A stretch of DNA of 64,000 bases from Gaiellales bacterium (GCA_046330385.1 JAXLSV010000007.1:44718-108717), one strand, 5' to 3'; positions 11,349 to 51,105 are shown, counted from the first letter of the stretch. Notes: generated by a model from the letters alone, not told the origin. Made by a program: numbers and translations.

Positions 11349-11355
11349 CGTCGGC

Positions 11356-20741: not shown

Positions 20742-20783
20742 CATCAGAGTCGACGACAAGCACCGAGGGGACGGAGGCTTCCC

Positions 20784-26671: not shown

Positions 26672-26735
26672 GCTCAGGAGAGGCTACGGGTGGGGCAGCA
26701 TCGTCGCTGCCCCACCCGCGGTCCTTGTGACCGGT

Positions 26736-28380: not shown

Positions 28381-28413
28381 CTATAACCTATAGTCGTCGT
28401 TGTCAAGGGTCAA
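28381..28413 (-). promoter_or_regulatory. Promoter TTGACC-N17-TAGGTT with palindrome CTATAACCTATAG, embedded in the 3' end of the upstream hydantoinase A gene
   Basis: -35 at 28413-28408, -10 at 28390-28385, palindrome at 28381-28393; GAGGAGG RBS precedes the OppA-like gene. Confidence 0.6.
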
Positions 28414-30435
28414 TGCGAAGTTCCCCTCGGCGTCGAGGAGAGCGCGCCAGCCGGTCGGAACCCACACCGTGGCGTCGAGCCCTTCGACGATCGCAGGCCC
28501 GACGGCTGCGTATCCGGCCGGCATCGCCTCCCAGACGAGGAGCGCGGCGTCGACCAGCTGCCCGGCCCGGTCGTCGTACGCGACCCGAGTCCCGACCTCG
28601 CCGCGATACCCGTCTGCGGCCGGGGCGCGTCGAGGCACGAGCTCCTCGATCCCGGGGGTGCGCCCGACAGCGCTCGCCCGGACCGCGAGCACCTCATGCT
28701 GGTGCCCGGCCAGCGCGAACCCGTAGAGCCGCTCGTGCTCGGCGTCGAACGCGCCGGCGACCGCCTCGACGGTCAGGGGCAACGGCGGCGCGGGAACCCG
28801 GATGTCCCAGTTCTGGCCGACGTACTTCATGTCGAAGGAGAGCTCGGTCTCGGGCTCACCGTCGTACCCCTCGTTCCGGAGCTCGCGCACGACCTCGGCC
28901 AGCATCTCTCCGGCGACCACGCCAAGCCCGCCCGCCCCCATCCGCTCGAGCCGAATCGGATACGACCGGACACGATCGACCCGCAGATCGGAGAGGATGA
29001 GCCCGCCCGCCGAGAGCAGCCCGGGATGCGCAGGGACGATCACCTCGGCGATCTCGAACTCCTCGGCGAGCAGCGCGGCGTGCAGCGGGCCTGCGCCGCC
29101 GCCCGCGAGCAGTGAGTAGTCGCGCGGGTTGACCCCTCGCTCCGCAGTCAGCGCGCGGATCTCTTTCGCCATGTTCGAGACGCAGATCCTGATCACCCCT
29201 GCCGCCGCCTGGAACAGATCGAGCCCGAGCGGAGCGCACACGTCCCGCTCGAGCGCGACGCGGGCCAGATCGGGATCGATCTCGAGCGCCCCGCCGAGCA
29301 GCGACCGAGCACCGATCCGCCCGAGCACGACGTTCGCATCGGTCACCGTCGGGTGGAGCCCGCCCTGCCCGTAGCACGCAGGCCCCGGGCTCGCGCCGGC
29401 GCTCTGCGGGCCGACCTTCAGTCCGCCCCCGGCGTCGACCCAGGCGATGCTCCCGCCGCCCGCACCGATCGTCCTGATGTCGAGCATCGGCAGGTTGAGG
29501 GGCGTCGTCGCGTCGAGCCACCCCTGGGTCGTGATCCCAGGCGCCCCGCCCGTGACGAGCGCGACGTCAGAGCTCGTCCCGCCGACGTCGATCGAGATCA
29601 CGTCTGGCCTGCCCATCCGAACGCCGTGGACGCTCGCCGCGACCACGCCGCCCGCAGGGCCCGAGAGAAACGTGTCGACCGGGCGGGCGCGCGCCGTGCT
29701 CGCGGTCATCACCCCACCGTTCGAGCGCATGATCAGCGGCTCACCGACGACACCGCCCGCCGCGAGCGAATCGGCGAGATGTCCGAGGTATCCCGCCATC
29801 ACCGGCTTCACGTACGCGTCTGCGATCGTGGTCGAGGCGCGCTCGTACTCGCGCCACTGGGGCAGGACGTCGCTCGACAGCGAGAGCCACAGCCCGGGAT
29901 GCCGCGCGCGAGCGACCTCCGCAGCGGCGAGCTCGTGCGCGGGATCGAGATAGGAGAACAGGAAGCAGATCGCGAGGCTCTCCGCGCCCTGCGCCACCAG
30001 GTGGTCGACCGCCGCCTCGACCTCGTCGAGCGCGAGCGGCTCGACCTCCGCGCCGTAGGCGTCGAGCCGGCCGGCGACGTCGCACCGGAGATGGCGCGGG
30101 ACGAGCGGCTCGGGCTCGTCCCAGAGCAGGTTGAAGACCTCGCTCTCCGGCTTGTTGCCCCGCCGGATCTCAGGGATGTCACGGTGTCCCTCGGTGGTGA
30201 GGAATCCCGTCGTCGCGCCGCGCCGCTCGATGATCGCGTTCGTCGCAACAGTCGTCCCGTGGACGAGCCGGGCGATCCTGGTTGGATCGAGCCCGAGCTC
30301 CGACAGCCCCTGGACGACCGCGCGCGAGGGATCTTCGGGTGTCGAGCGCAGCTTGTGGAAGCGTTGGCTCGCCCGGCCGGGATCGACCGCGACGATGTCC
30401 GTGAACGTGCCACCGACGTCGACGCCGACGATCAC
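28381..30435 (-). CDS. Hydantoinase/oxoprolinase A subunit (ATP-binding), copy 1
   Basis: GVDVGGTFTD, HGTTVATNA, LSGPAGG, DVGGTSSD, IGAGGGS, TVTDA; GTG 30435. Confidence 0.9.
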   Translation of the reverse strand: MIVGVDVGGTFTDIVAVDPGRASQRFHKLRSTPEDPSRAVVQGLSELGLDPTRIARLVHGTTVATNAIIERRGATTGFLTTEGHRDIPEIRRGNKPESEVFNLLWDEPEPLVPRHLRCDVAGRLDAYGAEVEPLALDEVEAAVDHLVAQGAESLAICFLFSYLDPAHELAAAEVARARHPGLWLSLSSDVLPQWREYERASTTIADAYVKPVMAGYLGHLADSLAAGGVVGEPLIMRSNGGVMTASTARARPVDTFLSGPAGGVVAASVHGVRMGRPDVISIDVGGTSSDVALVTGGAPGITTQGWLDATTPLNLPMLDIRTIGAGGGSIAWVDAGGGLKVGPQSAGASPGPACYGQGGLHPTVTDANVVLGRIGARSLLGGALEIDPDLARVALERDVCAPLGLDLFQAAAGVIRICVSNMAKEIRALTAERGVNPRDYSLLAGGGAGPLHAALLAEEFEIAEVIVPAHPGLLSAGGLILSDLRVDRVRSYPIRLERMGAGGLGVVAGEMLAEVVRELRNEGYDGEPETELSFDMKYVGQNWDIRVPAPPLPLTVEAVAGAFDAEHERLYGFALAGHQHEVLAVRASAVGRTPGIEELVPRRAPAADGYRGEVGTRVAYDDRAGQLVDAALLVWEAMPAGYAAVGPAIVEGLDATVWVPTGWRALLDAEGNFALTLDNDDYRL

Positions 30436-32444
30436 TGGGCTCCCCTCGGCCGCGCGGCGCGCACCGCGGCGCGAACCCGCTCCCAGCTGTGGCGCTCGAC
30501 GATCTGCTCCGCGTCGTCGGGGTCGAGCCCGTAGACGTCCACTGCGACCGCCGGCGAGATCAGCTCGTCGCGCAGGTCGCGGACGACGCTCTCCCGCGGG
30601 CGCTCTCGCGGGTCGCCCCAACCGCCGCCGCCAGGCAGCCTGACGACGATGCGCTCACCGGCGTGAACAGCGAGCGACGAGAACTTCGTGGGCGAGACCG
30701 CCGACGATCGCTCGGTCGCGAGCTGCTCGACGCCGTCGCGCGTGACGAGCCGAATCTCCATCGGCGCGCCGTCGCGCCCGCCGTCGACACCGCGCGCGGG
30801 GAAGCGATGGTAGTGGGAGATCGAGTTGAGCGAGACGTCGTCCGCGAGCACCTCGTATGTCCGCGTGACGCCGACACCGCCGCGCGTCCGCCCGGCGCCG
30901 CCCGAGTCGCGCCGCAGCTGGTACTCGTGCACGCGCCAGGGTTGGGCGGTCTCGACGACCTCGGGGGGAAACAGCCGCGCCTGCGGCGCCACCCAGGTCG
31001 TCACCGAGTAGCCGTCGGCCTCGAGCCGGGCGCCGTACCCGGTCGGCTCCCAGATGACGAACGCGTAGAACTCGTCGAGCACCGGGTGATGCCCGCCGCC
31101 GGTGATCAGACCGGTCGTCGCCCCGGTCGGCGCCGCCGCAGCCTGCGGCACCGCGTGTCGCAGCGCAGCGATCACCACCTCGGCGACGAGGTTGTGGCTC
31201 TCGGTGTTGCCAGCCGAGAGCGGGGCAGGGTAGTCGCAGTTGACGATTGTCCCGGGAGGCGCGATCAGATGGAGTGGGCGGAACGCCCCTTCGTTGTGCG
31301 GGATCGTGTGGTCGACGAGGTTGAAGATCGCGTTTGCACATCCAGCAACGGTGACGACGTAGGGGCAGTTGATCGGACCGGCCGCCTGCGGCGCGCTCCC
31401 ACGGAAGTCGAGCACGACGTCCTCGTCGAGCACCGCCACCGCGAGCTCGATCGGGTACGAGCCCGGCCGGACGCCGTCGTCGTCGGCCTCGATCCGCGCG
31501 TGGTAGATCCCGTTCGGGATCTCACGGATGCACGCGCGCATGCGCCGCTCGGCGTACCGCTGCAGCTCCGCCATCGTCGCGACGAGCGTCTCGCGGCCGT
31601 AGCGCGCGAGCAGCTCGTCGATGCGGCGCTCGCCGATCACGAGCGAGCCGACCATCGCCATGAAGTCGCCGTAGCTCGAGCGGGCGGTGCGGGTGTTCGA
31701 GAGCAGGATTCGCCAGATCTCGTAGTCCGGCTCGCCGGCGCGGTAGAGCTTGACCGGTGGGATGACGACGCCTTCCTGGTGGATGTCCGTCGAGTCGCCG
31801 GGCATTCCCCCGGCCGCCTTGCCGCCGACGTCCGCATGGTGCGCGATCGTCGCGAGCACGGCGAGCGGCTCGCCGTCACGGATCACGGGGCGCACCATGC
31901 AGAACTCGGGCAGGTGCGGAGTGCCGAGCATCGAGCTGTTGTGGACGAGCACGTCGCCCGGCTCGAGTCCCTCCCAGCCGAACTGCGTGATCGCCGCCCT
32001 CACCGCCGGGCGCATCGCACCCATCTGCGCAACGAACCCCTCGCGCGTCGCGACCCGCTCGAGCGCGGGGTCGAAGATTCCGACAGTGAAGTCCTCCCCT
32101 TCGAAGAACACCGGCGAGTACGCCGTCCGCGTCATCGTCAGCTGCATCTCCATCCAGATCGAGGTGAGGGCGCCGTGCACCACCTCGAGCGAGATCGGGT
32201 CGATCGCACTCTCGGGTGCCGCTGGCGAGCGCCCGAGCCAGGGCTCGAGGAGCGGCAGGCATTCCTCGAGCGGAGCGTCGAGCGACGCGAGCTCGCGGGC
32301 GACCTCGTCGCAATAGCGAGCGCCTCCGGCTCCCTCGACGACCGGGTCGCCGGGGAACAGCAACCGCCCGGTGAACGCGCACTTGGGAGCCGTGACCCTG
32401 AGCGGGTCCCGGGCGAGCGTGGTCGTCTCGAATCCGGCCAACAC
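30432..32444 (-). CDS. Hydantoinase B/oxoprolinase subunit, copy 1, with an ~80-aa N-terminal extension
   Basis: DPISLEVV, RTAYSP, GGMPGDSTDIHQEG, DSGGAG..RGG, PGGGGWGDP..R; start uncertain. Confidence 0.85.
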   Translation of the reverse strand: MLAGFETTTLARDPLRVTAPKCAFTGRLLFPGDPVVEGAGGARYCDEVARELASLDAPLEECLPLLEPWLGRSPAAPESAIDPISLEVVHGALTSIWMEMQLTMTRTAYSPVFFEGEDFTVGIFDPALERVATREGFVAQMGAMRPAVRAAITQFGWEGLEPGDVLVHNSSMLGTPHLPEFCMVRPVIRDGEPLAVLATIAHHADVGGKAAGGMPGDSTDIHQEGVVIPPVKLYRAGEPDYEIWRILLSNTRTARSSYGDFMAMVGSLVIGERRIDELLARYGRETLVATMAELQRYAERRMRACIREIPNGIYHARIEADDDGVRPGSYPIELAVAVLDEDVVLDFRGSAPQAAGPINCPYVVTVAGCANAIFNLVDHTIPHNEGAFRPLHLIAPPGTIVNCDYPAPLSAGNTESHNLVAEVVIAALRHAVPQAAAAPTGATTGLITGGGHHPVLDEFYAFVIWEPTGYGARLEADGYSVTTWVAPQARLFPPEVVETAQPWRVHEYQLRRDSGGAGRTRGGVGVTRTYEVLADDVSLNSISHYHRFPARGVDGGRDGAPMEIRLVTRDGVEQLATERSSAVSPTKFSSLAVHAGERIVVRLPGGGGWGDPRERPRESVVRDLRDELISPAVAVDVYGLDPDDAEQIVERHSWERVRAAVRAARPRGAQ

Positions 32445-32445
32445 T

Positions 32446-33129
32446 GTGTATGGTGTTCAGATCACCACAGCTGATGTCAAGCCTACCGAGCACGTCGAGC
32501 GGCTCCGCGCCCTGGGGGTCGCCGCGGTCGCCGACGCCCTCGACCGCCTGGGGGCTCGTGACCAGGTCATGCACCACTCGATTCGCCCGCTGATCGGCGG
32601 CGACCGCGTCGCCGGGCGTGCGTTTACGATCGCGTCCGAGCCAAACGACGCGCTGCTCGACGATCCCTATACCCACGAGATCGCCGCGGTCGACGCGGTG
32701 CCCGCGGGCGCGTTTGTCGTGATCGCGACGCAGGGCTCATGCGAGGCCGCCGTCTGGGGCGAGCTGCTCGGCACGGTCGCTTCACGCCGTGGAGCGATCG
32801 CGGCCGTGTCCGACGGCGCGGTGCGCGACCTCGCGGGGCTCCGCCAGCTCGCGCTCCCGACCTACGCGGCCGCGGTGAGCGCGCGCGACTCGGCCGGGCG
32901 CCTGCAGGTCACGGGGCACGGCGGAGAGGTCGTCTGCGGCGGGGTGAGCGTCGCCTCCGGCGACCTCGTCCTCGCGGACGAGGATGGGGTTGTGGTCGTG
33001 CCGAGCGCGCTCGCCGAGGAGGCGATCGCGGCAGCGGAGCGCAAGCTCTCGATCGAGGGCGTCGCGCTGAGCTCGCTCCAGGAGGGCACCTCCTTGCAGT
33101 CGATGTACGACGAGCACCGCGTGCTCTAA
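32446..33129 (+). CDS. RraA-family protein (HMG/CHA aldolase-like)
   Basis: VADALD, AGRAFT, AVWGELL, DGAVRD, GDLVLADEDGVVVVP; start uncertain (GTG 32446 used). Confidence 0.85.
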   Translation: MYGVQITTADVKPTEHVERLRALGVAAVADALDRLGARDQVMHHSIRPLIGGDRVAGRAFTIASEPNDALLDDPYTHEIAAVDAVPAGAFVVIATQGSCEAAVWGELLGTVASRRGAIAAVSDGAVRDLAGLRQLALPTYAAAVSARDSAGRLQVTGHGGEVVCGGVSVASGDLVLADEDGVVVVPSALAEEAIAAAERKLSIEGVALSSLQEGTSLQSMYDEHRVL

Positions 33130-33138
33130 CGCCGCCCG

Positions 33139-36100
33139 TTGACGCTCCACGTGGGGATCGACACCGGTGGGACGTTCACCGACCTCGTCGCGCTCGACGA
33201 CGAGACCGGCGTCACCGTGATCGGGAAGCGACCGTCGACCCCGGAGGCGCCGGCGCTGGCGATCTTCGAGGCATTCGCCGCCGCCGGCGTCGACCCGAGC
33301 ACGGCTGCGACGGTCACGGTCGGGACGACTGTCGGAACGAATGCGCTCCTCGAGCGGCGCGGCGCTCGCGTCGTCCTCCTCACGACTGCGGGCTTCGAGG
33401 ATGTGCCCGTGATCGGGCGGATCGACAAGCCCGACCCGTACGACCTACGCTGGCCGAAACCACGCCCCGTCGTCGAGCGCCGCAACTGCGTCGGCGTCGC
33501 CGAGCGCATCGCCCACGATGGCCGCACCGTGGTCGCGCTCACGGAGGAAGAGCTCGAGCGGGTCGGCCGCGAGGTCGCCGCCCGCCTCGCCGACAGCGAC
33601 GGCAACGACGACGCGGCGATCGCGGTCGCCCTGCTCTTCTCGTTTGCCAACCCGACGCACGAGGACCGTCTCGCCCACTTCCTCGAAGCCCGCTTCCCGG
33701 ACGTTCCCCTCTCGATCTCGTCTCGGACGGCCCCGGTCTGGCGCGAGCACGAGCGGACGTCCACCACCGTGATCGACGCCTATCTTGCGCCTTCGGTCGC
33801 CCGGCTCGCACGGGAGCTCGAGGAGGGTCTCGCGTCGCGGGGCTTCCGCGGGCCGGTGTCGGTCATGAAGTCGAACGGCGGCCGAATGCTCGCCGCGGTA
33901 GCGGGCGCCCAGGCCGCCGAGACCGTGCTTTCGGGGCTGTCGGGCGGGATCGTCGCGGGTCGGCACTTTGGGCTCGCGGCCGGTGCGCGCGACGTCGTCA
34001 CGCTCGACATGGGCGGGACGAGCGCGGATATCGGCCTCGTTCGCGACGGCGAGATTCAGCACGTCCCTGACTTCGAGCTCGAGTTCGGTGTGCCGGTCGC
34101 CGCGCCGGCGATCGACCTCGTCACGATCGGGGCGGGCGGCGGCTCGATCGCGTGGATCGACGACGGCGGGATGCTGAGGGTGGGGCCGCGCAGCGCGGGC
34201 GCGAGGCCCGGGCCTGCCTGCTACGCGCTCGGTGGCACCGAGCCGACCGTCACCGACGCGAACCTCGTCCTCGGTCGCATCGACCCCGCGTACTTCCTGG
34301 GCGGCAGCGTCGGGCTCGACGCCGAGCTCGCACATGCGGCCCTCGAGCGCATCGGTGCCCAGATCGGGCTGGACGTCGCGGCCACCGCCGCGGCCGTGAT
34401 CGAGATCGCGAACGAGGCGATGGCGACCACGATCCGCCGCGTCGCGGTCGAGCGAGGCGTCGACCCCCGCGACTTCGAGCTCGTCGCCTTCGGCGGCGCC
34501 GGGCCGCTGCACGCCGCCGCGATCGCGGAGTCGATCGGGATGCGCGGCGTCATCGTGCCCCCGCACCCGGGCCTCGCGTCCGCTTTCGGGACGCTCCTCG
34601 CCGATCGTCGCGTCGATCGCCGCTGGACGCACTACTCGCGCTCCGACACCGTCGACATCGACGCTCTTACCGCCAGGCTCGAGACGATGGAGCGCGAGGC
34701 ACGGGCTGAGCTCGCGGTCGAGGGGTTCTCCGGCGAGCCACGCATCTCCCGCTCGTTGAGCCTTCGCTATGCGGGCCAGAACTACGAGCGGGACGTCGCG
34801 GTCGCCCCGGGCCCGATCACCGCCGCCGGGCTCGCGGAGATCCTCGCGGCATTCCACGAGGAGCATCGACGAACATACGGGTACAGCTTCCCGGGCGAGA
34901 CGGTCGAGATCATCCACGCGAACGTCGTCGCGCTCGGATCGGGGGCAGTCGCGACCCCGCGGCAGCTGCCACAGGCGCCGCTTCCAGAGCCGACCTCGGT
35001 GCGTGCGGTCCGGTTTGGCGACGAGGTGATGCCGACTCCGCGGTACCGGCGGGACGCGCTCCCGCGCGGCGCGGTGCTCGCGGGCCCGTGCATCGTCGAG
35101 GAGGTCGATTCCACGACGCTCGTCCCTCCCGACCACCAGGTGACCGTGTTCGCCGACGGCCTCCTGCGCATCGCGCCGGCGCCCGGCAGCCGCCCGCCCC
35201 GCAGGGCCCGTGGCGTGGACGCGGTGACGATGAGCATCGTCGGCGAGCAGCTCGTCGGGATTGCCCAGGAGATGGGAACGCACATGATGCGCGCCGCCTA
35301 CTCCCCCATCTTCAGCGAGTCACGCGACTTCTCGTGCGCGCTCTTCGATCCGCAGGGCCGCATGGTCGCGCAGGGCCGCTTCAACCCGGCTCACCTGGGC
35401 GCGATCGGCGAGACGGTGCGCTGCGTGATCGACGAGCTCGGCCTCAACGCCATCGAGGAGGGCGACGTCCTCATCCACAATGACCCGTTCCGCGGCGGCT
35501 GCCACATGCCGGAGCACATGCTGCTCGCCCCCGTGTTCCACCGCGGGCGGCGTGCCTTCCTCGCGGCGACGATCGGGCACATGGCGGAGATCGGCGCGGT
35601 CACCGTCGGCTCGTTCGCCAGCACGGCGACCGAGGTCTACCAGGAAGGGCTACGCCTGCCGCCCGTGAAGCTCGTTCAGGGTGGATCGCTCGTCTCCGAC
35701 GTCTGGAAGATCATCCTCTCGAACCACCGCACGCCCCGGGCGAGCTGGGGTGACCTACACGCGATGATCGGCTCGCTCCGCCTCGCGGACCAGCGGCTCG
35801 GCCTCCTGCTCGAGCGGTACGGCGCCGAGGCGATGGCGGAGATCTGCGACGGGCTGCTCGCACACGGGGCCCGGCTGATGCGCCGGCGCCTCGAGGAGAT
35901 CCCGGACGGGGACTACTCCTTCCACGACCTGATGGAGGGCGACGGTCACTCGGCCGACCCGATCACGATGCGAGTTCGGGTCACGATCTCCGGGGACGAG
36001 GCGACCGTCGACTACGCCGGCTCCGACCCGCAGGCGCGCGGCCCTGTGAATGCCACATACGGCGTCACGGTGTCGGCGACCTGCAACGCCTTCCTCCAGG

Positions 36101-36984
36101 TGAGTGGGCAGGAGATCCCGCGCAACGCGGGAGCGTACGGCTGCCTGACGACGCTCGCGCCGCTCGGGTCGGTCGTGAACGTCAAGTTCCCCGGCCCCTC
36201 CGTCGGCGGCAACACCGAGACTCAGCCAAAGCTCGTCGGGATGCTGCTCGGCGCGTTCGCGGAAGCGATGCCGGACCGCGTGATGGCGGCCGAGGGCGTG
36301 ACCTCGTGCAACTTCCTCTTCGGCGGCACCCACCCGGACACCGGCGAGCCGTACGCCCACTACCACTTCGAGGCGAGCGGCTGGGGCGCCCGCGACGACG
36401 CCGACGGGAACAGCGCTCAGAACCACATCCACGGCAACTGCCGGAACACGCCGATCGAGGTGTTCGAGGCGCGGTTCCCGTTTCGCACGCTTGCGTACGG
36501 GCTCGTTCCGGACTCGGGCGGGCCCGGCCGCCACCGCGGTGGGCTCGCGATCCGCCGCGACCTCGAGGTGCTTGCCCCGGAGGTCACGGTGAGCGTGTTC
36601 ATGGACCGGGTCGAGCAGGGTGCGTGGGGGCTCTTCGGTGGCGGCGCAGGCCGGTGTGCGGCGCTGCTCGTGCGCCGAGCGGGGGACGAGCGGTTCCGCA
36701 CCTTCGTCGACGCGTTCGGAACCCGGAGCCCGTCGAAGCTCTCCGGCGTGGTGCTGCGCGCAGGCGACGTCGTCCGCATCGAGAGCGCCGGTGGCGGCGG
36801 CTTCGGCGACCCGCGCGAGCGTGACCCGCGACAGGTGCTCGAAGACGTCCGTGCGGGACTAGTGACGCCCGCCGCAGCCGAGCGCGATTACGGGGTCGCC
36901 TCGGCGGGCACGCCGCCCACGCTCGACGCGGCCCGCACGGCGGAACTGCGCGAGGCCGCTGGCTCGCGCCCGCAGAAGTCGTAG
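33139..36984 (+). CDS. Fused hydantoinase A-B (5-oxoprolinase-like architecture), 1281 aa
   Basis: N-half GIDTGGTFTD and DMGGTSAD; C-half RAAYSP, HNDPF, DSGGPG..RGG, AGGGGFGDP; one continuous frame. Confidence 0.9.
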   Translation: MTLHVGIDTGGTFTDLVALDDETGVTVIGKRPSTPEAPALAIFEAFAAAGVDPSTAATVTVGTTVGTNALLERRGARVVLLTTAGFEDVPVIGRIDKPDPYDLRWPKPRPVVERRNCVGVAERIAHDGRTVVALTEEELERVGREVAARLADSDGNDDAAIAVALLFSFANPTHEDRLAHFLEARFPDVPLSISSRTAPVWREHERTSTTVIDAYLAPSVARLARELEEGLASRGFRGPVSVMKSNGGRMLAAVAGAQAAETVLSGLSGGIVAGRHFGLAAGARDVVTLDMGGTSADIGLVRDGEIQHVPDFELEFGVPVAAPAIDLVTIGAGGGSIAWIDDGGMLRVGPRSAGARPGPACYALGGTEPTVTDANLVLGRIDPAYFLGGSVGLDAELAHAALERIGAQIGLDVAATAAAVIEIANEAMATTIRRVAVERGVDPRDFELVAFGGAGPLHAAAIAESIGMRGVIVPPHPGLASAFGTLLADRRVDRRWTHYSRSDTVDIDALTARLETMEREARAELAVEGFSGEPRISRSLSLRYAGQNYERDVAVAPGPITAAGLAEILAAFHEEHRRTYGYSFPGETVEIIHANVVALGSGAVATPRQLPQAPLPEPTSVRAVRFGDEVMPTPRYRRDALPRGAVLAGPCIVEEVDSTTLVPPDHQVTVFADGLLRIAPAPGSRPPRRARGVDAVTMSIVGEQLVGIAQEMGTHMMRAAYSPIFSESRDFSCALFDPQGRMVAQGRFNPAHLGAIGETVRCVIDELGLNAIEEGDVLIHNDPFRGGCHMPEHMLLAPVFHRGRRAFLAATIGHMAEIGAVTVGSFASTATEVYQEGLRLPPVKLVQGGSLVSDVWKIILSNHRTPRASWGDLHAMIGSLRLADQRLGLLLERYGAEAMAEICDGLLAHGARLMRRRLEEIPDGDYSFHDLMEGDGHSADPITMRVRVTISGDEATVDYAGSDPQARGPVNATYGVTVSATCNAFLQVSGQEIPRNAGAYGCLTTLAPLGSVVNVKFPGPSVGGNTETQPKLVGMLLGAFAEAMPDRVMAAEGVTSCNFLFGGTHPDTGEPYAHYHFEASGWGARDDADGNSAQNHIHGNCRNTPIEVFEARFPFRTLAYGLVPDSGGPGRHRGGLAIRRDLEVLAPEVTVSVFMDRVEQGAWGLFGGGAGRCAALLVRRAGDERFRTFVDAFGTRSPSKLSGVVLRAGDVVRIESAGGGGFGDPRERDPRQVLEDVRAGLVTPAAAERDYGVASAGTPPTLDAARTAELREAAGSRPQKS

Positions 36985-36992
36985 CTTGCCGT

Positions 36993-37454
36993 TCAGGCGA
37001 TCTCGAAGATCCCCTCGATCTCGACCGGGATCGCGAACGGCAGCGCGCCCATCCCGATCGCCGAGCGCGCGTGGCGACCGCGTTCCTCACCGAACACCGA
37101 GACCAGGAGATCGCTCGCACCGTTGGCGACCGTCGGCTGCTCGCCGAACTCCGGATCCGAGTTGACGAGGACGAGCAGCTTGACCACGCGCCTCACGCGA
37201 TCGAGCTCCCCGATCTCGGCCTTCAGGCTCGCAAGCAGATTGACGGTCGTGAGCTGGGCCGCCTCCTGCCCGGTCGCGACGTCGACCTCACGCCCGAGCT
37301 TGCCCTTGTAGACGAACTCCCCGTCCCGGTACGGCCCATGCCCGGAGACGAACACGATGTTGCCGACCGTGACGGCGCCGACGTAGTTCCCGACCGCGGG
37401 GTTGACGGGTGGAAGCTCGATGCCGAGCTCCGCGAGACGCTGTTCTGGGGTCAT
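36993..37454 (-). CDS. RidA-superfamily protein (long, YjgH/Rid4-7-like)
   Basis: GNYV, VFVSGHGP, ANGASDLL, HARSAIG, VEIE. Confidence 0.85.
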   Translation of the reverse strand: MTPEQRLAELGIELPPVNPAVGNYVGAVTVGNIVFVSGHGPYRDGEFVYKGKLGREVDVATGQEAAQLTTVNLLASLKAEIGELDRVRRVVKLLVLVNSDPEFGEQPTVANGASDLLVSVFGEERGRHARSAIGMGALPFAIPVEIEGIFEIA

Positions 37455-37508
37455 GTGGGCCTCCGTTCGACGCAGTGGACTCAGGCTGCTCGGGCGGTCG
37501 GCGAGCGG

Positions 37509-38567
37509 CTACCGCAGCCTCCCGCGCGCGGCGACGGGCCAGGTGCCGACGACGCGACCGCCACGGTGAACGACGACCTCGTCGTGCAGGTTCGTGCAGC
37601 CGCAGGCGTGGTTGGGAACGATCGTGACGACCTCCCCCACCACCGGCCGGGTGCTGCACGCCTCGAAGTCGACGTGACCGTGCTCCTCCGACAGCGTCTG
37701 GATGCGCGCCTCCGGGTACTCGACGATCAGGCCGTAGTCGTCGCGACCCGCACCTTCGGCCGGGTCGTTCGTGAGGGTCTTCGACCCGCAGTCGAGGATC
37801 CCCCGCTCCGCCGTCGGCCGGCTCACAACCGTTGCCCGTATACGCAACGCACAGTCGGCGAGCGGGACGCTCCCGTTGGCGATGCACGAGCGGTCGCCGT
37901 AGACGTACGTTCCCGCGCGGACCTCGGTGACCTCCGGGGTCTCGTGGCTCGCGAAGAACCCCGGGGTGCCGCCACCGCTGACGATCGTCGCCTCGAGGCC
38001 CCGCTGCCCGAGCTCGGCGATCGCCTCGCGTACCCACGCGCCCGTTCCCGGGAGCGTCGGGTAGGTCATCAGGCCGTCGAAGCGAAGGCCCGGCAGCTCG
38101 CTCACGAGCTGCGCGAGCTCCGCCGCGGCGACCGGGGTCTGGACACCCGTCCGGGCGAAACCGGTGTCGCACTCGACGAGAAACCCCGCCTCGGCGCCGA
38201 ACGCGTCGAGCGCGGCCGAGAGGCCACGTACCACCACCTCGGAGTCGCCGACGCCACGGAGCGTCCCCTCGCTCGCGAGCGTCGCGAACCGCTCCGCCTT
38301 CTGCGGCCCGACGAGCGGGAACGTGATGAGGATGTCGTCGATTCCCGCTGCGCGCATCACCTCGGCCTCACCGAGCTTCTGGCACGCGATCCCGACCGCC
38401 CCGGCGGCGAGCTGGAGGTGGGCGAGCGCCGGCAGCTTGTGCGTCTTGATGTGCGGGCGAAACGCGAGCCCGTGAGCGTCGCAATACGCCTGCATCCGCG
38501 CGATGTTACGACCGACCGCGTCGAGATCGACGGTGGCGACCGGCGTGTCGAGGGTCGCCAGGAGCAT
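37509..38567 (-). CDS. Alanine-racemase-fold PLP enzyme (D-threonine aldolase/D-serine dehydratase-like)
   Basis: TPVATVDL, FRPHIKTHK (PLP Lys), ECDTG..RTG, SGGGTP, SEEHG, VPNHAC; ATG 38567. Confidence 0.85.
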   Translation of the reverse strand: MLLATLDTPVATVDLDAVGRNIARMQAYCDAHGLAFRPHIKTHKLPALAHLQLAAGAVGIACQKLGEAEVMRAAGIDDILITFPLVGPQKAERFATLASEGTLRGVGDSEVVVRGLSAALDAFGAEAGFLVECDTGFARTGVQTPVAAAELAQLVSELPGLRFDGLMTYPTLPGTGAWVREAIAELGQRGLEATIVSGGGTPGFFASHETPEVTEVRAGTYVYGDRSCIANGSVPLADCALRIRATVVSRPTAERGILDCGSKTLTNDPAEGAGRDDYGLIVEYPEARIQTLSEEHGHVDFEACSTRPVVGEVVTIVPNHACGCTNLHDEVVVHRGGRVVGTWPVAARGRLR

Positions 38568-38568
38568 C

Positions 38569-38946
38569 TCAGTCGCCGAGCCAGACCACCGCGTCCCCCT
38601 CGACGTCGAAGCCGACGAGGTCGGACTGGATGGTTGTGCGCGCCGGCATCGGGTCGGAGAAGAAGCTGCGGTACTCGGCGTCCATCTCGTCGAAATGGGC
38701 CATGTCGCTGATGTACATCCCCACACGCACCGCGTTCCGCAAGGACCCGCCCGCGGCGCGCGCGACGGCGTCGAGGTTGGTGAGCACCTGCCTGACCTGC
38801 TCGGCGATCGTCGACCCGACGCGAGCTCCGGCTGCGTCGTACGGCCCCTGGCCGGCGAGGTAGAGGAAGCCACCTGCGACGATGCCCTGCGAGTAACCCC
38901 CGGAGGGAGCGGGCGCGTCACCAGAGAGAACGGGAGCGCGTGACAC
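38569..38946 (-). CDS. RidA-family enamine/imine deaminase
   Basis: YSQG, LYLAGQGP, PARTTI (catalytic Arg), VEGD; AAGGAGG RBS precedes GTG 38946. Confidence 0.85.
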   Translation of the reverse strand: MSRAPVLSGDAPAPSGGYSQGIVAGGFLYLAGQGPYDAAGARVGSTIAEQVRQVLTNLDAVARAAGGSLRNAVRVGMYISDMAHFDEMDAEYRSFFSDPMPARTTIQSDLVGFDVEGDAVVWLGD

Positions 38947-38947
38947 T

Positions 38948-39145
38948 TCAGCCTTCCTCCTTTGCCCCGTAGCGCGGGAGCCAGTAGTCGAGATAGAGAC
39001 GCTCGTGGTCGGGTGAGCAGAACATCCGGTCGTGACCGTTGACCTCGGCTCCCCAGTATCGCGCCGCGATCGGGTGGCCGCACAGGTCGCAGCATTCGCG
39101 GTTCGCCCGCAGGTAGGAGATCTCGTTCGGCTTCCACCCGCCCAT
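38948..39145 (-). CDS. Small Cys/His-rich protein (TRASH/zinc-finger-like), 65 aa
   Basis: CCDLCGHPI...FCSPDH. It exactly fills the gap between flanking genes with 1-bp spacers, has a GGAG upstream, and is not Arg/Ala-rich like shadow ORFs. Confidence 0.7.
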   Translation of the reverse strand: MGGWKPNEISYLRANRECCDLCGHPIAARYWGAEVNGHDRMFCSPDHERLYLDYWLPRYGAKEEG

Positions 39146-39146
39146 C

Positions 39147-40865
39147 TCAGCCGAGCTCCCCCGTCAGCCCGTAGACGGCGCGGGCGGCCCCCTCGCTGAC
39201 GAAGCCCTCGCCGACGTCGCGCCGCACGAGCTCGCGATCTCGCGCGAGCGGGTCGCCGTAGCCGCCGCCGCCGGGCATCAGGATCTTCACCTGGTCGCCC
39301 GCATGGAGGGTCACGCCGGAGAACTTCGACGGTGACATCGTCCCGAACTCCTCGACGAACGTCCGCCACTCACCGGCGCCCGACCGCCGCACCCAGAGGC
39401 CGCCGACGGCGCCCTCGCCGCCGCCGAGCACACCCCAGGGCTCGGTCTTCATCCGGTTGAGCAGCGCGCTGACGGTGACCTCGGGAACGGTGACAGTGAA
39501 GATGCGCTCGCCGCCGAGCCCACCCCGGAACTCGCCCGGCCCGCCCGAGTCGGTGACGAGCCGGTACGACTCGATCCGGAACGCCGGGTAGCGCGTCTCG
39601 AACACCTCGACCGGAGTGTTGCGGCAGTTGCCGTTGATCGTGACGACCATGTTGTTGCCGTCGAGCCCACGCCGACCGCCCCAGCCGACGCCCTCGAAGT
39701 GGAAGTGGGCGTACGGCTCGTCGGTGCGAGGATCGATCCCGCCGAAGAGGAACGGCGACGAGGTCCCGCCGCACGAGGCTGCGACGCGATCGGGGATCGC
39801 CTCCTGGAGCGCACCGAAGATCATGTCGGTGATGCGCGGGCTCGTCTCGGTGTTGCCACCGGCGACCGGAGCCGGGAACGCGCAGTTCACGATCGTCCCC
39901 GGCGGGGCGATGATCGTGAACGGTCGGTAGCAGCCCTCGTTGCGCGGGATCGTCGGGTCGGTCAGGTGCAGGAACGCGTTGTACACCGCCGACGCGGTGA
40001 CGGCGTAGATGGCGTTCACCGGCCCGACCGCCTGCGGCGCCGAGCCGGTGAAGTCGGCGATCACCGAGCCCTGGTCGATCGTCAGGGTGAGCACCATCGG
40101 GTAGCTGCCCTCGGAGATCCCGTCGTCCTCGATCGCGTCGGTGAAGGTGTACGTCCCGTCCGGGATCGACTCGATCTCGGCCCGCATGCGCCGTTCGGCG
40201 ATCGCCATCAGCTCGGCCGACGCGGCCCGGAAGAACTCGAGGCCGTAGTCGGCGACGAGCGTGTGGATGCGCCGCTCGGCGAGGTCGAGCGAGCCCATCA
40301 TCGCGCGGAAGTCGCCGAGCGTCACGCGCGGGGTGCGGTGATTCGAGAGGATGATGCGCCAGACGTCATCGACGTCCTCGCCGCGCCGCTTGATCTTCAC
40401 CGGCGGCAACAGCAGCCCCTCCTGGTAGATCTCGGTGGCGTCGCCCGAGAGCCCCCCGGGGGTCTTCGCGCCCACCTCGGACATGTGCGCGACGTTGGCG
40501 ACGAACGCGATCAGCTCGCCCTCCCAGAACACGGGCTTCAGGAGCATGTGCTCCGGTACGTGCCCCGAGCCCCGGTACGGGTCGTTGTGAAGCACGACGT
40601 CGCCCTCTTCGAAGGCGTCGAGCCCGAGCTCCTCGATCGTCCAGTCGACCGTGAACTTGATCGTGCCGATCTGGGACGGACAGAATTCCGCCTGCGCGAG
40701 GAGATCGCCGGACGGACCGAAGATCACGCACGAGAAGTCGAGCGACTCGTTGAAGATCGGCGAGTAGGCGGTGGTCATCATCGTCACGCCCATGTCGCGA
40801 CAGCAGCTCGTCAGGTAGTTGTCGACGACAGTCAGGGCGACTTGGTCGAGGCGCGGGCCACTCAT
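39147..40865 (-). CDS. Hydantoinase B/oxoprolinase subunit, copy 3
   Basis: TAYSPIFNESLDFSC, HNDPYRG, EIYQEG, DSGGPGEFRGG, PGGGGYGDP. Confidence 0.9.
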   Translation of the reverse strand: MSGPRLDQVALTVVDNYLTSCCRDMGVTMMTTAYSPIFNESLDFSCVIFGPSGDLLAQAEFCPSQIGTIKFTVDWTIEELGLDAFEEGDVVLHNDPYRGSGHVPEHMLLKPVFWEGELIAFVANVAHMSEVGAKTPGGLSGDATEIYQEGLLLPPVKIKRRGEDVDDVWRIILSNHRTPRVTLGDFRAMMGSLDLAERRIHTLVADYGLEFFRAASAELMAIAERRMRAEIESIPDGTYTFTDAIEDDGISEGSYPMVLTLTIDQGSVIADFTGSAPQAVGPVNAIYAVTASAVYNAFLHLTDPTIPRNEGCYRPFTIIAPPGTIVNCAFPAPVAGGNTETSPRITDMIFGALQEAIPDRVAASCGGTSSPFLFGGIDPRTDEPYAHFHFEGVGWGGRRGLDGNNMVVTINGNCRNTPVEVFETRYPAFRIESYRLVTDSGGPGEFRGGLGGERIFTVTVPEVTVSALLNRMKTEPWGVLGGGEGAVGGLWVRRSGAGEWRTFVEEFGTMSPSKFSGVTLHAGDQVKILMPGGGGYGDPLARDRELVRRDVGEGFVSEGAARAVYGLTGELG

Positions 40866-42898
40866 GCCGACGCCCCCGTCTCGATCACGAGCGCACCCTG
40901 CTCGTGCAGCTCCACCGTCATCCCCGGCTCGACGAGGGTCGTCGAGCCCGCCTCCTCGACGAGCGCCGGGCCTGCGATCGTCTCGCCGATCGCGAGCGAG
41001 CTGCGGTGGACGACTGTGGCGTCCATGAACCCCGTCCCCCGGAAGTAGACGGGTCGCGTCACCGGCGGCGAGCCGGCAGGCTCGTCCCGGTACGCGAGGT
41101 CGAGGGCCGGACGCCGGCCGATCGCGGTGACCTTGAACGACACCAGCTCGACCACCTCGCCTTCGATCGCGTAGCCGTAACGCTCGGCATGGAGGGCGTC
41201 GAACCGGCGCAGCGCGTCGGCGAGCCCGTCGTCGTCGAGCACGCCGCCCGCGATCTCGACCTCATGCTCGTAGTTCTGGCCGAAGTACCGCATGTTGATC
41301 GCCCGCCGGATCTCCGGCTCACCCTGGTACCCCTCCTGCCGCAGCTCGTCGATCGCGCGCTCCGTGATCCGGTCGAACTGCCGGTTGACAAGGGCGGCGT
41401 CGACATCATTGGAGCGAAACGCCTGCGTCCACACTTTGTCGACGCGGATGTCTGCGAGCAGGAGCCCGAGCGCCGAGAACACCCCAGGGAAGCGCGGCAC
41501 GATCACGCGCGGGATCCCGAGCACGCGCGCGACCGACGCGGCATGGAGCGGCCCGGCACCGCCAAAGGCGAGCAGCGAGAAGCGCCTGGGGTCGTGGCCG
41601 CGCTCGAGCGACACCATCTTGATCGCGCTCGCCATGTTCTCGTTCGCAATCTCGAGCACCGAGGCCGCGAGCTCGACAGGCTCCATCGAGACCCGCCCGG
41701 CGAGGCGTGCGAACGGCTCATCGAGCAGCGTGCTCTGCAGCTGCATCCGCCCCGCGAGGAAGTACCCGGGGTCGAGCCGTCCGAGCAGCAGGTTCGCGTC
41801 GGTCACGGTCACCTCGGTCCCGCCGCGGCCGTAACAGATTGGCCCGGGCTCGGCCCCGGCGCTGCGCGGCCCGACGCGGAGGAAGCCGCCGGCGTCCACC
41901 CACGCGACCGAGCCGCCACCTGCCCCGATCGACTTGATGTCGATGAGCGGCACCGCCGCCGGCAGCCCCCACTCGATCTCGTACTCGGTCGTGTGGCGCT
42001 GGCGGCCGTCGACGAGGATCCCGACGTCGGCGCTCGTCCCGCCCATGTCGAGCGTCAGGACGTTGGGCTCCCCGAGCGCCCGAGCGACGTGCTCGGTCGC
42101 GGTCATCCCTCCGGCCGGACCGGACATGACCGTCTGGACCGGTGACTCGCTCGCAGCCGACGCGAGCATTGCGCCACCGTTCGACTTCATGATCGTCCAC
42201 TCGCGAAGCATCCCCACGTCCCTGAGCGCCTGCGAGAGACTCGTGACGTAGCGCCCGAGCAGGGGCCGGAGGTAGGCGTCGGCGATCGTCGTCGACGCGC
42301 GCTCGTACTCACGCCAGATCGGCGCGACCTCGTGAGAGACCGAGACCGGGAGCTCGGGCAGCTCCTCGGCGAGGATCGACTTGACCAGCTCCTCGTGCTC
42401 GGTGCTGACGTAGGAGAAGAGCAGGCAGACCGCGACCGCCTCCACGCCGGCCTGACGCAACTCGCGGCAGAGCGCCCGCACCTCGTCGGCGTCGACCGGC
42501 CGCAGCTCCTCGCCGTCCGCGCCCATGCGCTCGTCGATCCCCAGGCAGAGCCTCCGGCTCGAGACGAGCGGCGCCGGCTTCTGCCAGCGCAGGTCGTAGA
42601 GCACCTTGCGATTGATCCGCTGGATGAACGGCGTGTCCTCGAACCCACGCGTGGTGAGGAACGCGACCTTGCAGCCGGTGCGCTCGATCAGCGCGTTCGT
42701 ACCCACCGTGGTGCCGTGGGTGAACGTCGCGATCTCTCCGCCGGCGATCCCACCCTCCGAGAGCGCGTTGACGATCGCCTGCCCGGGGTTGCTCGGCATC
42801 GAGGAGGTCTTGAGCGAATCGATTCGGCCGGTCGCAGGGTCGAACGCAACCAAGTCCGTGAACGTGCCGCCGGTGTCGATGCCAATCACGAGCCCCAT
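40862..42898 (-). CDS. Hydantoinase/oxoprolinase A subunit, copy 3
   Basis: GIDTGGTFTD, HGTTVGTNA, MSGPAGG, DMGGTSAD; ATG 42898. Confidence 0.9.
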   Translation of the reverse strand: MGLVIGIDTGGTFTDLVAFDPATGRIDSLKTSSMPSNPGQAIVNALSEGGIAGGEIATFTHGTTVGTNALIERTGCKVAFLTTRGFEDTPFIQRINRKVLYDLRWQKPAPLVSSRRLCLGIDERMGADGEELRPVDADEVRALCRELRQAGVEAVAVCLLFSYVSTEHEELVKSILAEELPELPVSVSHEVAPIWREYERASTTIADAYLRPLLGRYVTSLSQALRDVGMLREWTIMKSNGGAMLASAASESPVQTVMSGPAGGMTATEHVARALGEPNVLTLDMGGTSADVGILVDGRQRHTTEYEIEWGLPAAVPLIDIKSIGAGGGSVAWVDAGGFLRVGPRSAGAEPGPICYGRGGTEVTVTDANLLLGRLDPGYFLAGRMQLQSTLLDEPFARLAGRVSMEPVELAASVLEIANENMASAIKMVSLERGHDPRRFSLLAFGGAGPLHAASVARVLGIPRVIVPRFPGVFSALGLLLADIRVDKVWTQAFRSNDVDAALVNRQFDRITERAIDELRQEGYQGEPEIRRAINMRYFGQNYEHEVEIAGGVLDDDGLADALRRFDALHAERYGYAIEGEVVELVSFKVTAIGRRPALDLAYRDEPAGSPPVTRPVYFRGTGFMDATVVHRSSLAIGETIAGPALVEEAGSTTLVEPGMTVELHEQGALVIETGASA

Positions 42899-44586: not shown

Positions 44587-44600
44587 TGGTCAATCGCTCC

Positions 44601-44629
44601 TTGAGCGTCGTTACTCAATAACATATCAT
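44601..44629 (+). promoter_or_regulatory. Divergent promoter region: TTGAGC-N17-TATCAT with inverted repeat TTGAG-N8-CTCAA
   Basis: AT-rich 55-bp gap between the DapA-like gene and the SDR. Confidence 0.5.
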
Positions 44630-44641
44630 CCGAGATTACAA

Positions 44642-47777: not shown

Positions 47778-47822
47778 CGCCGACCTCCTTTGGGAATGCC
47801 GCGAGCTGTCGAAAGCCGCAGG

Positions 47823-51085: not shown

Positions 51086-51105
51086 GGGCTGGATTCGCAG
51101 AACGG

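What the first reader, a model, noticed from the sequence alone, without database searches (positions are those of the whole stretch)
28381..42898. Three hydantoinase/oxoprolinase systems in 14.5 kb, each with a different architecture
Seen: split B-then-A (minus strand), an A-B fusion of 1281 aa (plus strand) and split A-then-B (minus strand). All three B domains share a GNTE motif (AGNTES, GGNTET, GGNTET) and a C-terminal insert ending SP[S/T]K[F/L]S (TRSPSKLS, TMSPSKFS, AVSPTKFS). Known: this superfamily includes 5-oxoprolinase, N-methylhydantoinase, caprolactamase and acetone/acetophenone carboxylase, and most members are uncharacterised. Inference: one specific subfamily has expanded locally, acting on sequential intermediates or a range of related rings.
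Basis: partly seen in the sequence, partly recalled or inferred. Interest (0 to 1): 0.65.

Follow-up and report, generated by a model that had tools for sequence, protein, structure and literature searches.

The report
Three paralogous ATP-dependent lactamase-type systems
Three differently built copies of an ATP-driven ring-opening enzyme sit side by side in a soil actinobacterium (order Gaiellales); all three belong to one uncharacterised branch of the hydantoinase/oxoprolinase family, which has an altered metal site and a polar substrate pocket and usually has its own small zinc-finger partner protein.

Summary
Pfam finds three HyuA/HyuB systems between 28381 and 42898: B-then-A (minus strand), a 1281-aa A-B fusion (plus), and A-then-B (minus).

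The genome is a 3.6 Mb Gaiellales genome with 11 HyuB paralogs. Only the three window copies carry GNTE and the ~9-residue SP[ST]K[FL]S insert.

In an ML tree the three B domains form one clade (SH-aLRT 99.7). The clade also holds alphaproteobacterial plasmid genes and a haloarchaeal plasmid gene. It excludes vertebrate 5-oxoprolinase, the PDB N-methylhydantoinase, caprolactamase CapB and Ti-plasmid AgaG.

Three traits track the clade exactly:
- the CapB Asp102 metal ligand is replaced by Glu;
- N-T-E sits at CapB pocket positions 335-337;
- the insert is present.

A 50-70-aa TRASH-type zinc finger accompanies most clade members, as a free gene or fused to HyuB. The window has one copy, after B3. 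System 2 has lost its own copy.

"Local expansion" is only partly right. The paralogs are old (41-52% identity). Systems 2 and 3 are syntenic in about 12 Gaiellales species. System 1 is adjacent only in the two closest relatives.

Neighbouring genes (aminotransferases, gabT/SSADH, a D-threonine-aldolase-like PLP enzyme, RidA) point to lactam hydrolysis that releases amino acids. The substrates are unknown.

The parts
30432..32444 (-). B1: HyuB-type subunit of system 1 (670 aa). It has an ~80-aa N-terminal extension (about 32199-32444) and the clade hallmarks D118, H177, E180, H202, N413-T414-E415 and SPTKFS at 584.
   Evidence: Pfam PF02538, E 1.5e-158. Motifs. Residue mapping on CapB. The extension is conserved in L002 and L022. 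It aligns in register with the fused TRASH domain of A. vitis HyuB, but Cys2 and Cys4 are lost, and hhalign is not significant.
28381..30435 (-). A1: HyuA-type ATP-binding subunit of system 1. Its GTG start overlaps the B1 stop codon.
   Evidence: Pfam PF05378, PF01968 and PF19278. Start-codon analysis. In the A-subunit tree it lies outside the A2/A3 clade.
22814..28355 (-). Dpp/Opp-type ABC importer downstream of A1: a family-5 solute-binding protein (26736-28355), two permeases and two ATPases.
   Evidence: Pfam SBP_bac_5, BPD_transp_1, ABC_tran and oligo_HPY.
32446..33129 (+). RraA-like aldolase/decarboxylase family protein, ending 9 bp upstream of the A-B fusion.
   Evidence: Pfam PF03737, E 2e-31. 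Best PDB match is 3noj, a 4-carboxy-4-hydroxy-2-oxoadipate aldolase/oxaloacetate decarboxylase. Conserved upstream of the fusion in Gaiellales.
33139..36984 (+). AB2: A-B fusion of 1281 aa (system 2). Hallmarks are D730, H789, E792, H814, N1025-T1026-E1027 and SPSKLS at 1197. It has no TRASH gene of its own.
   Evidence: Pfam. Orthologs in Gaiellales and Spirochaetia. The TRASH gene is present upstream in relatives and absent here.
36993..37454 (-). RidA/YjgF-family protein, last gene of the system 3 operon.
   Evidence: Pfam PF14588 and PF01042. 66-91% identical in the Gaiellales loci.
37509..38567 (-). Fold-type-III PLP enzyme of the D-threonine aldolase / D-3-hydroxyaspartate aldolase / D-serine dehydratase family.
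   Evidence: Pfam PF01168 and PF14031. PDB matches: 7dib and 4v15 D-threonine aldolase at E ~1e-49, and 6qkb D-3-hydroxyaspartate aldolase. NCBIfam BhcC scores 188 bits, below the cut-off of 690.
38569..38946 (-). Second RidA-family protein (Endoribonuclease L-PSP).
   Evidence: Pfam PF01042, E 1.4e-23.
38948..39145 (-). 65-aa TRASH-type zinc-finger protein (C19-x2-C22 ... C43-x3-H47), the putative third subunit.
   Evidence: ORF. Conserved next to clade members in Gaiellales, Spirochaetia, Rhizobiaceae, Roseobacteraceae and a haloarchaeon, and fused to HyuB in A. vitis. Profile hits to the MYM-type TRASH domain 2das (E 1e-4) and to eL24. Family members hit Pfam TRASH_HVO_1752_C below its cut-off. 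AF2 mean pLDDT 84.
39147..40865 (-). B3: HyuB-type subunit of system 3 (572 aa). Hallmarks are D43, H102, E105, H127, N338-T339-E340 and SPSKFS at 511-516.
   Evidence: Pfam. Motif positions. Trees.
40862..42898 (-). A3: HyuA-type subunit of system 3 (ATG at 42898).
   Evidence: Pfam. Start codon. A-subunit tree.
42918..43658 (-). GntR/FadR-type regulator (GntR HTH plus FCD domain) just upstream of A3.
   Evidence: tblastx conservation in 13 Gaiellales loci. Pfam PF00392 and PF07729.
43663..44586 (-). DHDPS-family protein, closest to L-2-keto-3-deoxyarabonate dehydratase.
   Evidence: Pfam PF00701. PDB matches 7c0c and 3fkk at E ~4e-29. Conserved in the Gaiellales module.
44531..45406 (+). SDR-family oxidoreductase, divergent from the system 3 operon.
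   Evidence: Pfam adh_short_C2. Conserved at this position in Gaiellales. SDRs also follow the fusion in Spirochaetia.

Best explanation
The region holds three anciently diverged paralogs of one distinct, uncharacterised clade of ATP-dependent HyuA/HyuB cyclic-amide (lactam-type) hydrolases.

Shown:
- The clade is defined by three linked changes in the B subunit. The metal tetrad is Asp-His-Glu-His instead of Asp-His-Asp-His. Asn-Thr-Glu lies at substrate-pocket positions. There is a ~9-residue loop insert ending S-P-S/T-K-F/L.
- Most clade members are accompanied by a 50-70-aa TRASH-type zinc finger, either as a neighbouring gene or fused to the N-terminus of HyuB.

Inferred mechanism, by analogy with caprolactamase:
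- The A part uses ATP (possibly with bicarbonate) to activate the amide carbonyl.
- The B part hydrolyses the activated ring at its metal site.
- The zinc finger is a structural third subunit that docks on B.

Each system feeds its own route:
- System 1 is co-transcribed with a Dpp/Opp-type importer.
- System 2 is paired with an RraA-like aldolase/decarboxylase.
- System 3 has a GntR regulator, a 2-keto-3-deoxy-acid dehydratase-like enzyme, a D-threonine-aldolase-like PLP enzyme and two RidA proteins. These would deaminate or cleave a hydroxylated amino acid released by ring opening.

The polar pocket, and the differences between the three pockets, imply three different polar lactams (hydroxylated and/or carboxylated). 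The identities of these substrates are not established.
For: - Architecture and domains.
- Clade: ML tree with SH-aLRT 99.7 and FastTree 0.996. OPLAH (real sequences), NMH 7hk5, CapB 6yra and AgaG all fall outside.
- Synapomorphies: every clade member has H-x-P-E, [GA]GNTE and the insert; every outsider has H-x-x-D and neither of the other two.
- Residue mapping: my CapB transcript reproduces all published ligand and pocket residues. GNTE aligns to CapB 334-337, next to pocket residues T336 and M339, and Glu replaces ligand D102 (PMC8453981 sections 2.1 and 2.7).
- TRASH partner: found next to or fused with clade members across four phyla and in none of the non-clade loci. TRASH assignment.
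- Hydrolase reading: amine-processing neighbours. gabT plus succinate-semialdehyde dehydrogenase in Shinella and Sulfitobacter. Aminotransferases in A. vitis and Methylobacterium. A D-Thr-aldolase-like PLP enzyme plus two RidA here.
- Conserved module: systems 2 and 3 with the RraA-like, RidA, PLP-enzyme, DHDPS-like and SDR genes occur in about 12 Gaiellales species.
- Different pockets: 10 of 23 mapped positions differ among B1, B2 and B3.
Against: - No member of the clade has been assayed, so hydrolase activity and substrate class rest on context and homology at 34-37% identity to characterised enzymes.
- The tree was rooted on acetophenone carboxylase beta by choice.
- Structure-based statements are sequence mapping on CapB, not measured distances.
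- A1 does not group with A2/A3 in the A-subunit tree.
- System 2 here and Methylobacterium lack a detectable zinc-finger gene, so the partner may not be obligatory.
- A small zinc subunit and adjacent SDRs also recall ketone carboxylases.
Confidence: 0.6

Rival explanations
1. The clade consists of ATP-dependent carboxylases (ketone or enol carboxylases like acetone/acetophenone carboxylase) rather than hydrolases. The small zinc protein would play the role of the carboxylase gamma subunit, and SDRs would supply or remove keto substrates.
For: Three-component make-up with a Cys-rich small protein. SDR genes directly follow the fusion in Spirochaetia and follow HyuB in R. leguminosarum. An SDR lies next to the Gaiellales module. 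Caprolactamase itself needs bicarbonate (PMC8453981), so the two chemistries are close.
Against: The small protein is TRASH/eL24-like. It gives no sequence or fold match to acetone carboxylase gamma or to the small acetophenone carboxylase subunit. The B domains are far closer to NMH (E 2e-83) and CapB (2e-75) than to Apc (2e-32) or Acx (3e-19). The recurrent neighbours are aminotransferases, gabT, a PLP enzyme and RidA, which need an amine product.
Confidence: 0.12
2. The three systems act in a single pathway on sequential intermediates or on one substrate with several amide bonds. Systems 2 and 3 would share the single zinc-finger protein.
For: The convergent arrangement of systems 2 and 3 is conserved in about 12 Gaiellales species. 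System 2 has lost its own zinc-finger gene in this genome while the system 3 copy remains. The accessory enzymes are split between the two operons.
Against: The fusion type occurs without system 3 in Spirochaetia and in other Thermoleophilia. System 1 joins only in the closest relatives. The pockets differ strongly. Opening one ring rarely yields another stable lactam.
Confidence: 0.2
3. The three systems are redundant isozymes or decaying duplicates with no distinct roles. The motifs are lineage markers without functional meaning.
For: The genus carries many HyuB paralogs, from 1 to 16 per genome. The B1 N-terminal extension looks like a zinc finger that has lost its ligands.
Against: All reading frames are intact with high GC3. 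Each paralog has orthologs at 66-91% identity. The motifs lie at the metal site and in the pocket and are invariant across Bacteria and Archaea.
Confidence: 0.08

Closest known systems
Caprolactamase CapAB of Pseudomonas jessenii (PDB 6YRA) and OplBA of P. putida
   Same: Split A and B subunits, ATP-dependent lactam hydrolysis, full-length alignment (E 1.6e-75 for B3). Three of the four metal ligands are the same.
   Different: CapB has Asp102 where the window proteins have Glu. Its pocket is hydrophobic (C-T-T-T at 334-337, vicinal Cys410-Cys411) instead of G-N-T-E. It has no loop insert and no zinc-finger partner. NCBIfam CapA/CapB scores are 301-520 bits against a cut-off of 1000.
N-methylhydantoinase, fused 1288-aa form (PDB 7HK5-7HKA, 9H03)
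   Same: Best PDB match (E 2.2e-83). A-B fusion like system 2. Shares a P-S-K at the position of the SPSK motif.
   Different: It has H-S-P-D, FSRFSQ instead of GGNTET, and lacks the ~9-residue insert. It falls outside the clade.
Eukaryotic 5-oxoprolinase OPLAH
   Same: A-B fusion of about 1290 aa. Shares G-G-N at the start of the pocket motif (GGNVLT).
   Different: It has an Asp ligand (H-L-P-D), V-L instead of T-E, and no insert. It is distant in the tree.
Acetone carboxylase (AcxABC) and acetophenone carboxylase (Apc)
   Same: Same superfamily. Both have an additional small zinc-binding subunit.
   Different: Very low similarity of B (E 3e-19 and 2e-32). The small subunit here is a TRASH finger with no match to the carboxylase gamma subunits. 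Neighbouring genes indicate amine products.
AgaF/AgaG of the octopine Ti plasmid. Recalled from memory as the agropinic-acid lactam hydrolase; that assignment was not checked in a paper here.
   Same: Split HyuA/HyuB next to an opine-type ABC importer, as in system 1.
   Different: AgaG is 34% identical to B3. It has H-L-P-D, no GNTE, no insert and no TRASH partner, and falls outside the clade.

Membership tests
Hydantoinase/oxoprolinase superfamily (Pfam Hydant_A_N, Hydantoinase_A, Hydantoinase_B) | Full-length matches to the A and B domain models above the gathering score | tested here: met
   all three A parts and all three B parts match. B scores are 529-594 bits against a cut-off of 26.8.
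Hydantoinase/oxoprolinase superfamily | ATP-binding motifs in A (DxGGTxTD, DxGGT, GxxPGP; PMC8453981) | tested here: met
   Read directly from the translations. A1: VDVGGTFTD, DVGGTSSD, GASPGP. A2: IDTGGTFTD, DMGGTSAD, GARPGP. A3: IDTGGTFTD, DMGGTSAD, GAEPGP.
Hydantoinase/oxoprolinase superfamily | [quoted passage not shown] | tested here: not met
   positions 1, 2 and 4 are conserved. Position 3 is Glu in B1, B2, B3 and every clade member, and Asp in all others. This is a conservative but clade-wide change.
Caprolactamase (NCBIfam NF050156/NF050157 equivalogs) | Score above the equivalog cut-off (1000 bits) | tested here: not met
   495-520 bits for the A parts and 301-317 bits for the B parts.
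Caprolactamase | Hydrophobic pocket with the vicinal disulfide Cys410-Cys411 | tested here: not met
   gaps at positions 410/411, and polar residues (N, T, E, H, Q/S) at several pocket positions.
Canonical 5-oxoprolinase (OPLAH type) | Clustering with vertebrate OPLAH; GGNVLT pocket segment; H-L-P-D | tested here: not met
   OPLAH is in a different, distant clade. The motifs differ.
Acetone/acetophenone carboxylase | Equivalog scores; gamma subunit of the Acx/Apc type | tested here: not met
   Apc models score 89-293 bits against cut-offs of 1250-1500. The small protein has no Pfam, PDB-sequence or Foldseek match to Acx or Apc small subunits.
TRASH / MYM / eL24 zinc-finger fold (for the 65-aa protein) | C-x2-C-x19-22-C-x3-C pattern and profile similarity to TRASH domains | tested here: inconclusive
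   The pattern is met in the family; the window copy has His as the fourth ligand. Profile hits: 2das MYM5 TRASH at E 1.1e-4 and eL24 at about 1e-3. Pfam TRASH_HVO_1752_C hits family members at 25 bits, below the cut-off of 27, and the window copy gives no Pfam hit. Foldseek gives only weak matches, with TM about 0.5 to eL24.
ATP-dependent lactam hydrolase activity | Substrate-dependent ATP hydrolysis with ring opening | not testable with these tools
   Needs enzyme assays.

The most novel reading that the evidence does not exclude
The GNTE clade is a previously undescribed three-component class of ATP-dependent lactamases: A, B and a TRASH zinc finger. It would have a modified Asp-His-Glu-His metal centre and be specialised for polar lactams that known CapAB/OplAB enzymes do not open. 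Candidate substrates are gamma-butyrolactam (2-pyrrolidone) in the gabT/SSADH-linked members, polyhydroxy-lactams in the Agrobacterium and Rhizobium plasmid members, and hydroxylated amino-acid lactams in the Gaiellales module. On this reading the window shows all three ways the complex can be wired, including a B subunit carrying a fossil zinc finger.
Probability: 0.4. Interest if true: 0.7.

Novelty: new variant of a known kind. Interest (0 to 1): 0.55.

Why it matters
Most of the hydantoinase/oxoprolinase superfamily is unassigned. Annotation pipelines call everything "5-oxoprolinase/N-methylhydantoinase".

This region gives a sequence signature for one large, cross-domain clade: H-x-P-E, GNTE, the SPSK insert, and in most members a TRASH partner. 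The signature separates the clade cleanly from every characterised enzyme I could compare, and it places the changes at the metal site and in the substrate pocket.

It also yields testable substrate leads from gene context. One is a candidate for enzymatic opening of gamma-butyrolactam. A 2023 paper (PMC11033972) states that no enzyme was known for this reaction, which is relevant to nylon-4 and nylon-5 recycling.

For Gaiellales, abundant but barely cultured soil bacteria, it suggests that catabolism of polar lactams is a recurrent trait, with 1-16 HyuB paralogs per genome.

Tried and rejected
1. **IQ-TREE with 1000 ultrafast bootstraps.** The call gave no answer and left only an intermediate tree. 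I replaced it with a fast ML search plus SH-aLRT and FastTree.
2. **B1 N-terminal extension as a TRASH domain.** hhalign against the family profile gave E 0.073 and probability 0.8%, so this is not established. A pairwise alignment anchored on the B domain runs in register through the A. vitis fused finger. I keep it only as a lead.
3. **AgaF/AgaG of the Ti plasmid as a characterised clade member.** Rejected: 34% identity, no hallmarks, outside the clade.
4. **Small protein as a homolog of the acetone carboxylase gamma subunit.** No support from Pfam, PDB profile search or Foldseek.
5. **Literature searches.** I searched for TRASH plus hydantoinase/oxoprolinase, for agaF/agaG, and for an N-methylhydantoinase structure paper. 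Nothing relevant turned up.
6. **A TRASH gene upstream of AB2 in the window.** Absent in all frames.
7. **Structure prediction of B3.** Not run, because the tools return no coordinates. Distances from the insert or GNTE to the metal site could not have been measured.

Full report
**Observation**

The window comes from a 3.6 Mb, 70% GC genome. The closest public loci are labelled Gaiella, Gaiellales or Thermoleophilia MAGs.

Pfam confirms three hydantoinase/oxoprolinase systems at the stated coordinates:
- System 1: B1 at 30432-32444(-), followed by A1 at 28381-30435(-).
- System 2: an A-B fusion of 1281 aa at 33139-36984(+).
- System 3: A3 at 40862-42898(-), followed by B3 at 39147-40865(-).

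The genome has 11 HyuB and 9 HyuA paralogs. In an alignment of the 11 B domains, only the three window copies carry GNTE and the ~9-residue insert ending SP[ST]K[FL]S. They are also each other's best intragenomic matches.

**Phylogeny with characterised members**

I assembled B domains from these sources:
- the 11 paralogs of this genome;
- 66 related loci;
- metagenomic fusion proteins;
- plasmid homologs;
- PDB N-methylhydantoinase 7hk5, caprolactamase CapB 6yra and acetophenone carboxylase beta 5l9w, transcribed from the alignments and checked against published residue identities;
- Ti-plasmid AgaG;
- real vertebrate 5-oxoprolinases. I retrieved these by querying the database with a sequence recalled from memory, and used only the returned database sequences.

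FastTree and an ML tree with SH-aLRT agree. B1, B2 and B3 lie in one clade (0.996 and 99.7). The clade also contains genes from plasmids of Rhizobium leguminosarum, Methylobacterium aquaticum, Allorhizobium ampelinum (A. vitis) S4, Shinella and Sulfitobacter, and from a plasmid of the haloarchaeon Halalkalicoccus jeotgali.

OPLAH, NMH, CapB, AgaG and the other eight paralogs of this genome are all outside the clade.

**What defines the clade**

Three features correlate perfectly with the clade in the trees:
- the motif H-x-P-E where all other sequences have H-x-x-D;
- [GA]GNTE;
- the insert.

I mapped these on CapB. The caprolactamase paper (PMC8453981, sections 2.1 and 2.7) lists the metal ligands as D41, H99, D102 and H124, and lists the pocket residues. 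The Glu replaces ligand D102. N-T-E occupies CapB 335-337, next to pocket residues T336 and M339.

In window numbering:

| Subunit | Metal tetrad | Pocket motif |
|---|---|---|
| B1 | D118 / H177 / E180 / H202 | N413-E415 |
| AB2 | D730 / H789 / E792 / H814 | N1025-E1027 |
| B3 | D43 / H102 / E105 / H127 | N338-E340 |

The pocket is polar, unlike the hydrophobic CapB pocket. Among B1, B2 and B3 it differs at 10 of the 23 mapped positions, which argues for related but different substrates.

**A third component**

A 65-aa Cys-rich ORF at 38948-39145(-) lies between B3 and a RidA gene. Another first-stage note on this genome had already flagged it.

Homologs of this ORF occur in these positions:
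- after B3 in all Gaiellales loci;
- immediately upstream of the A-B fusion in most Gaiellales and all Spirochaetia loci;
- upstream of hyuA in Halalkalicoccus;
- after hyuB in Shinella and Sulfitobacter;
- between hyuA and hyuB in R. leguminosarum;
- fused to the N-terminus of HyuB in A. vitis pAtS4c.

No homolog was found in the roughly 40 non-clade loci.

The family has the pattern C-x2-C-G ... [FY]-C-x3-C/H. Its profile hits the MYM-type TRASH domain 2das (E 1e-4) and ribosomal protein eL24. Family members hit Pfam TRASH models just below cut-off. The AF2 model (pLDDT 84) gives only weak eL24/TRASH-like fold matches and no match to carboxylase gamma subunits.

The fusion in A. vitis is Rosetta-stone evidence that the finger binds B.

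In this window, system 2 has cleanly lost the copy that its closest relatives L022 and L002 keep between the RraA-like gene and the fusion.

The ~80-aa N-terminal extension of B1 aligns in register with the A. vitis fused finger, but lacks two of the four ligands, and a profile test is not significant. A fossil finger is possible but unproven.

Earlier agents of this scan reached the same "third subunit" idea in other genomes. I treat those notes as leads only and re-derived the association here.

**Evolution**

The paralogs are 41-52% identical. Each has orthologs at 66-91% identity in other Gaiellales.

The following module recurs in about 12 species-level genomes:
- plus strand: RraA-like gene, (TRASH gene), A-B fusion;
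- convergent on the minus strand: DHDPS-like, GntR, A3, B3, TRASH, RidA, PLP enzyme, RidA;
- a divergent SDR.

System 1, with its Dpp/Opp importer, is adjacent only in L002 and L022.

The fusion type occurs alone, with two SDRs, in Spirochaetia.

HyuB copy number in the genus ranges from 1 to 16.

In the A-subunit tree, A2 and A3 group with the partners of the clade's B subunits (98.4), but A1 does not.

"Local expansion" is therefore better described as old paralogs of one clade held together. Systems 2 and 3 form a conserved pair.

**Function**

Nothing in the clade is characterised. NCBIfam gives only sub-threshold CapA/CapB and Apc hits.

Gene context repeatedly places amine-handling enzymes next to clade members:
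- gabT plus succinate-semialdehyde dehydrogenase;
- aminotransferases;
- in this window, a D-threonine-aldolase / D-3-hydroxyaspartate-aldolase-like PLP enzyme flanked by two RidA proteins, a 2-keto-3-deoxyarabonate-dehydratase-like DHDPS-family protein, an RraA-like aldolase/decarboxylase and a GntR/FCD regulator.

This fits ATP-driven opening of a cyclic amide to an amino acid, which is then deaminated or cleaved.

Specific substrate ideas are inference only. They are 2-pyrrolidone for the gabT-linked members, polyhydroxy-lactams for the sugar-transporter and gluconokinase-linked plasmid members, and hydroxylated oxoproline-type lactams here.

The main rival is a carboxylase function, suggested by the small zinc subunit and the SDR neighbours. 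It is disfavoured by the much higher similarity to hydrolases, by the unrelated fold of the small protein, and by the amine-processing neighbours.

**Verdict**

This is a new variant of a known enzyme kind. It is an uncharacterised clade, probably three-component, with a modified metal site and a polar pocket. The window shows it in three architectures.

Interest is moderate. It offers clear, testable enzymology and a useful annotation signature, but no established substrate.

Noticed in passing
Genome contig C9:248827-256009 (outside the window): One HyuA gene is followed by three tandem HyuB paralogs of a different, non-GNTE clade. Contig C10:145187-155463 holds two further A-B pairs within 10 kb.
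   Followed up: no
window 33130-33138, compared with L022:9797-9988 and L002:~9847-9975: The TRASH zinc-finger gene that lies between the RraA-like gene and the A-B fusion in the closest relatives is cleanly missing here. Only 9 bp separate the RraA-like stop from the AB2 start.
   Followed up: yes
window 42918-43658 (-): A GntR/FadR-type (FCD) regulator lies between the DHDPS-like gene and A3, masked by a longer overlapping ORF. It is conserved in 13 Gaiellales loci. GntR genes also precede hyuA in the Shinella and Sulfitobacter clade members.
   Followed up: partly
L073 (Shinella, CP132317.1) and L074 (Sulfitobacter, NZ_CP085147.1), locus positions 5950-12900: The operon GntR - HyuA - HyuB(GNTE) - TRASH - gabT/aminotransferase - succinate-semialdehyde dehydrogenase, with a branched-chain-type ABC importer. 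It is a candidate 2-pyrrolidone-to-GABA route.
   Followed up: no
L067 (A. vitis pAtS4c, NC_011984.1), locus positions 1098-13214: HyuA, a TRASH-HyuB fusion and an aminotransferase sit next to a sugar ABC transporter, an SDR, a gluconokinase and a LacI regulator. This is compatible with catabolism of a polyhydroxy-lactam.
   Followed up: no
window 21678-22751 (-) and 20739-21656 (+): The last ORF after the Dpp/Opp ATPases has no Pfam hit at E 1e-5. Another first-stage note calls it NicX-like. It is convergent with a polysaccharide-deacetylase-like gene.
   Followed up: no
window 46554-51112 (-): An alpha/beta-hydrolase-cupin fusion, a transketolase-like E1 beta subunit and a lipoyl E2 acyltransferase (2-oxoacid dehydrogenase complex genes) lie downstream of the module.
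   Followed up: no
L024 (MFD01275 MAG), fusion gene: The A-B fusion ortholog is frame-disrupted: the B alignment shows out-of-frame segments, and A2 was not detected. This could be a long-read assembly error or a pseudogene.
   Followed up: no
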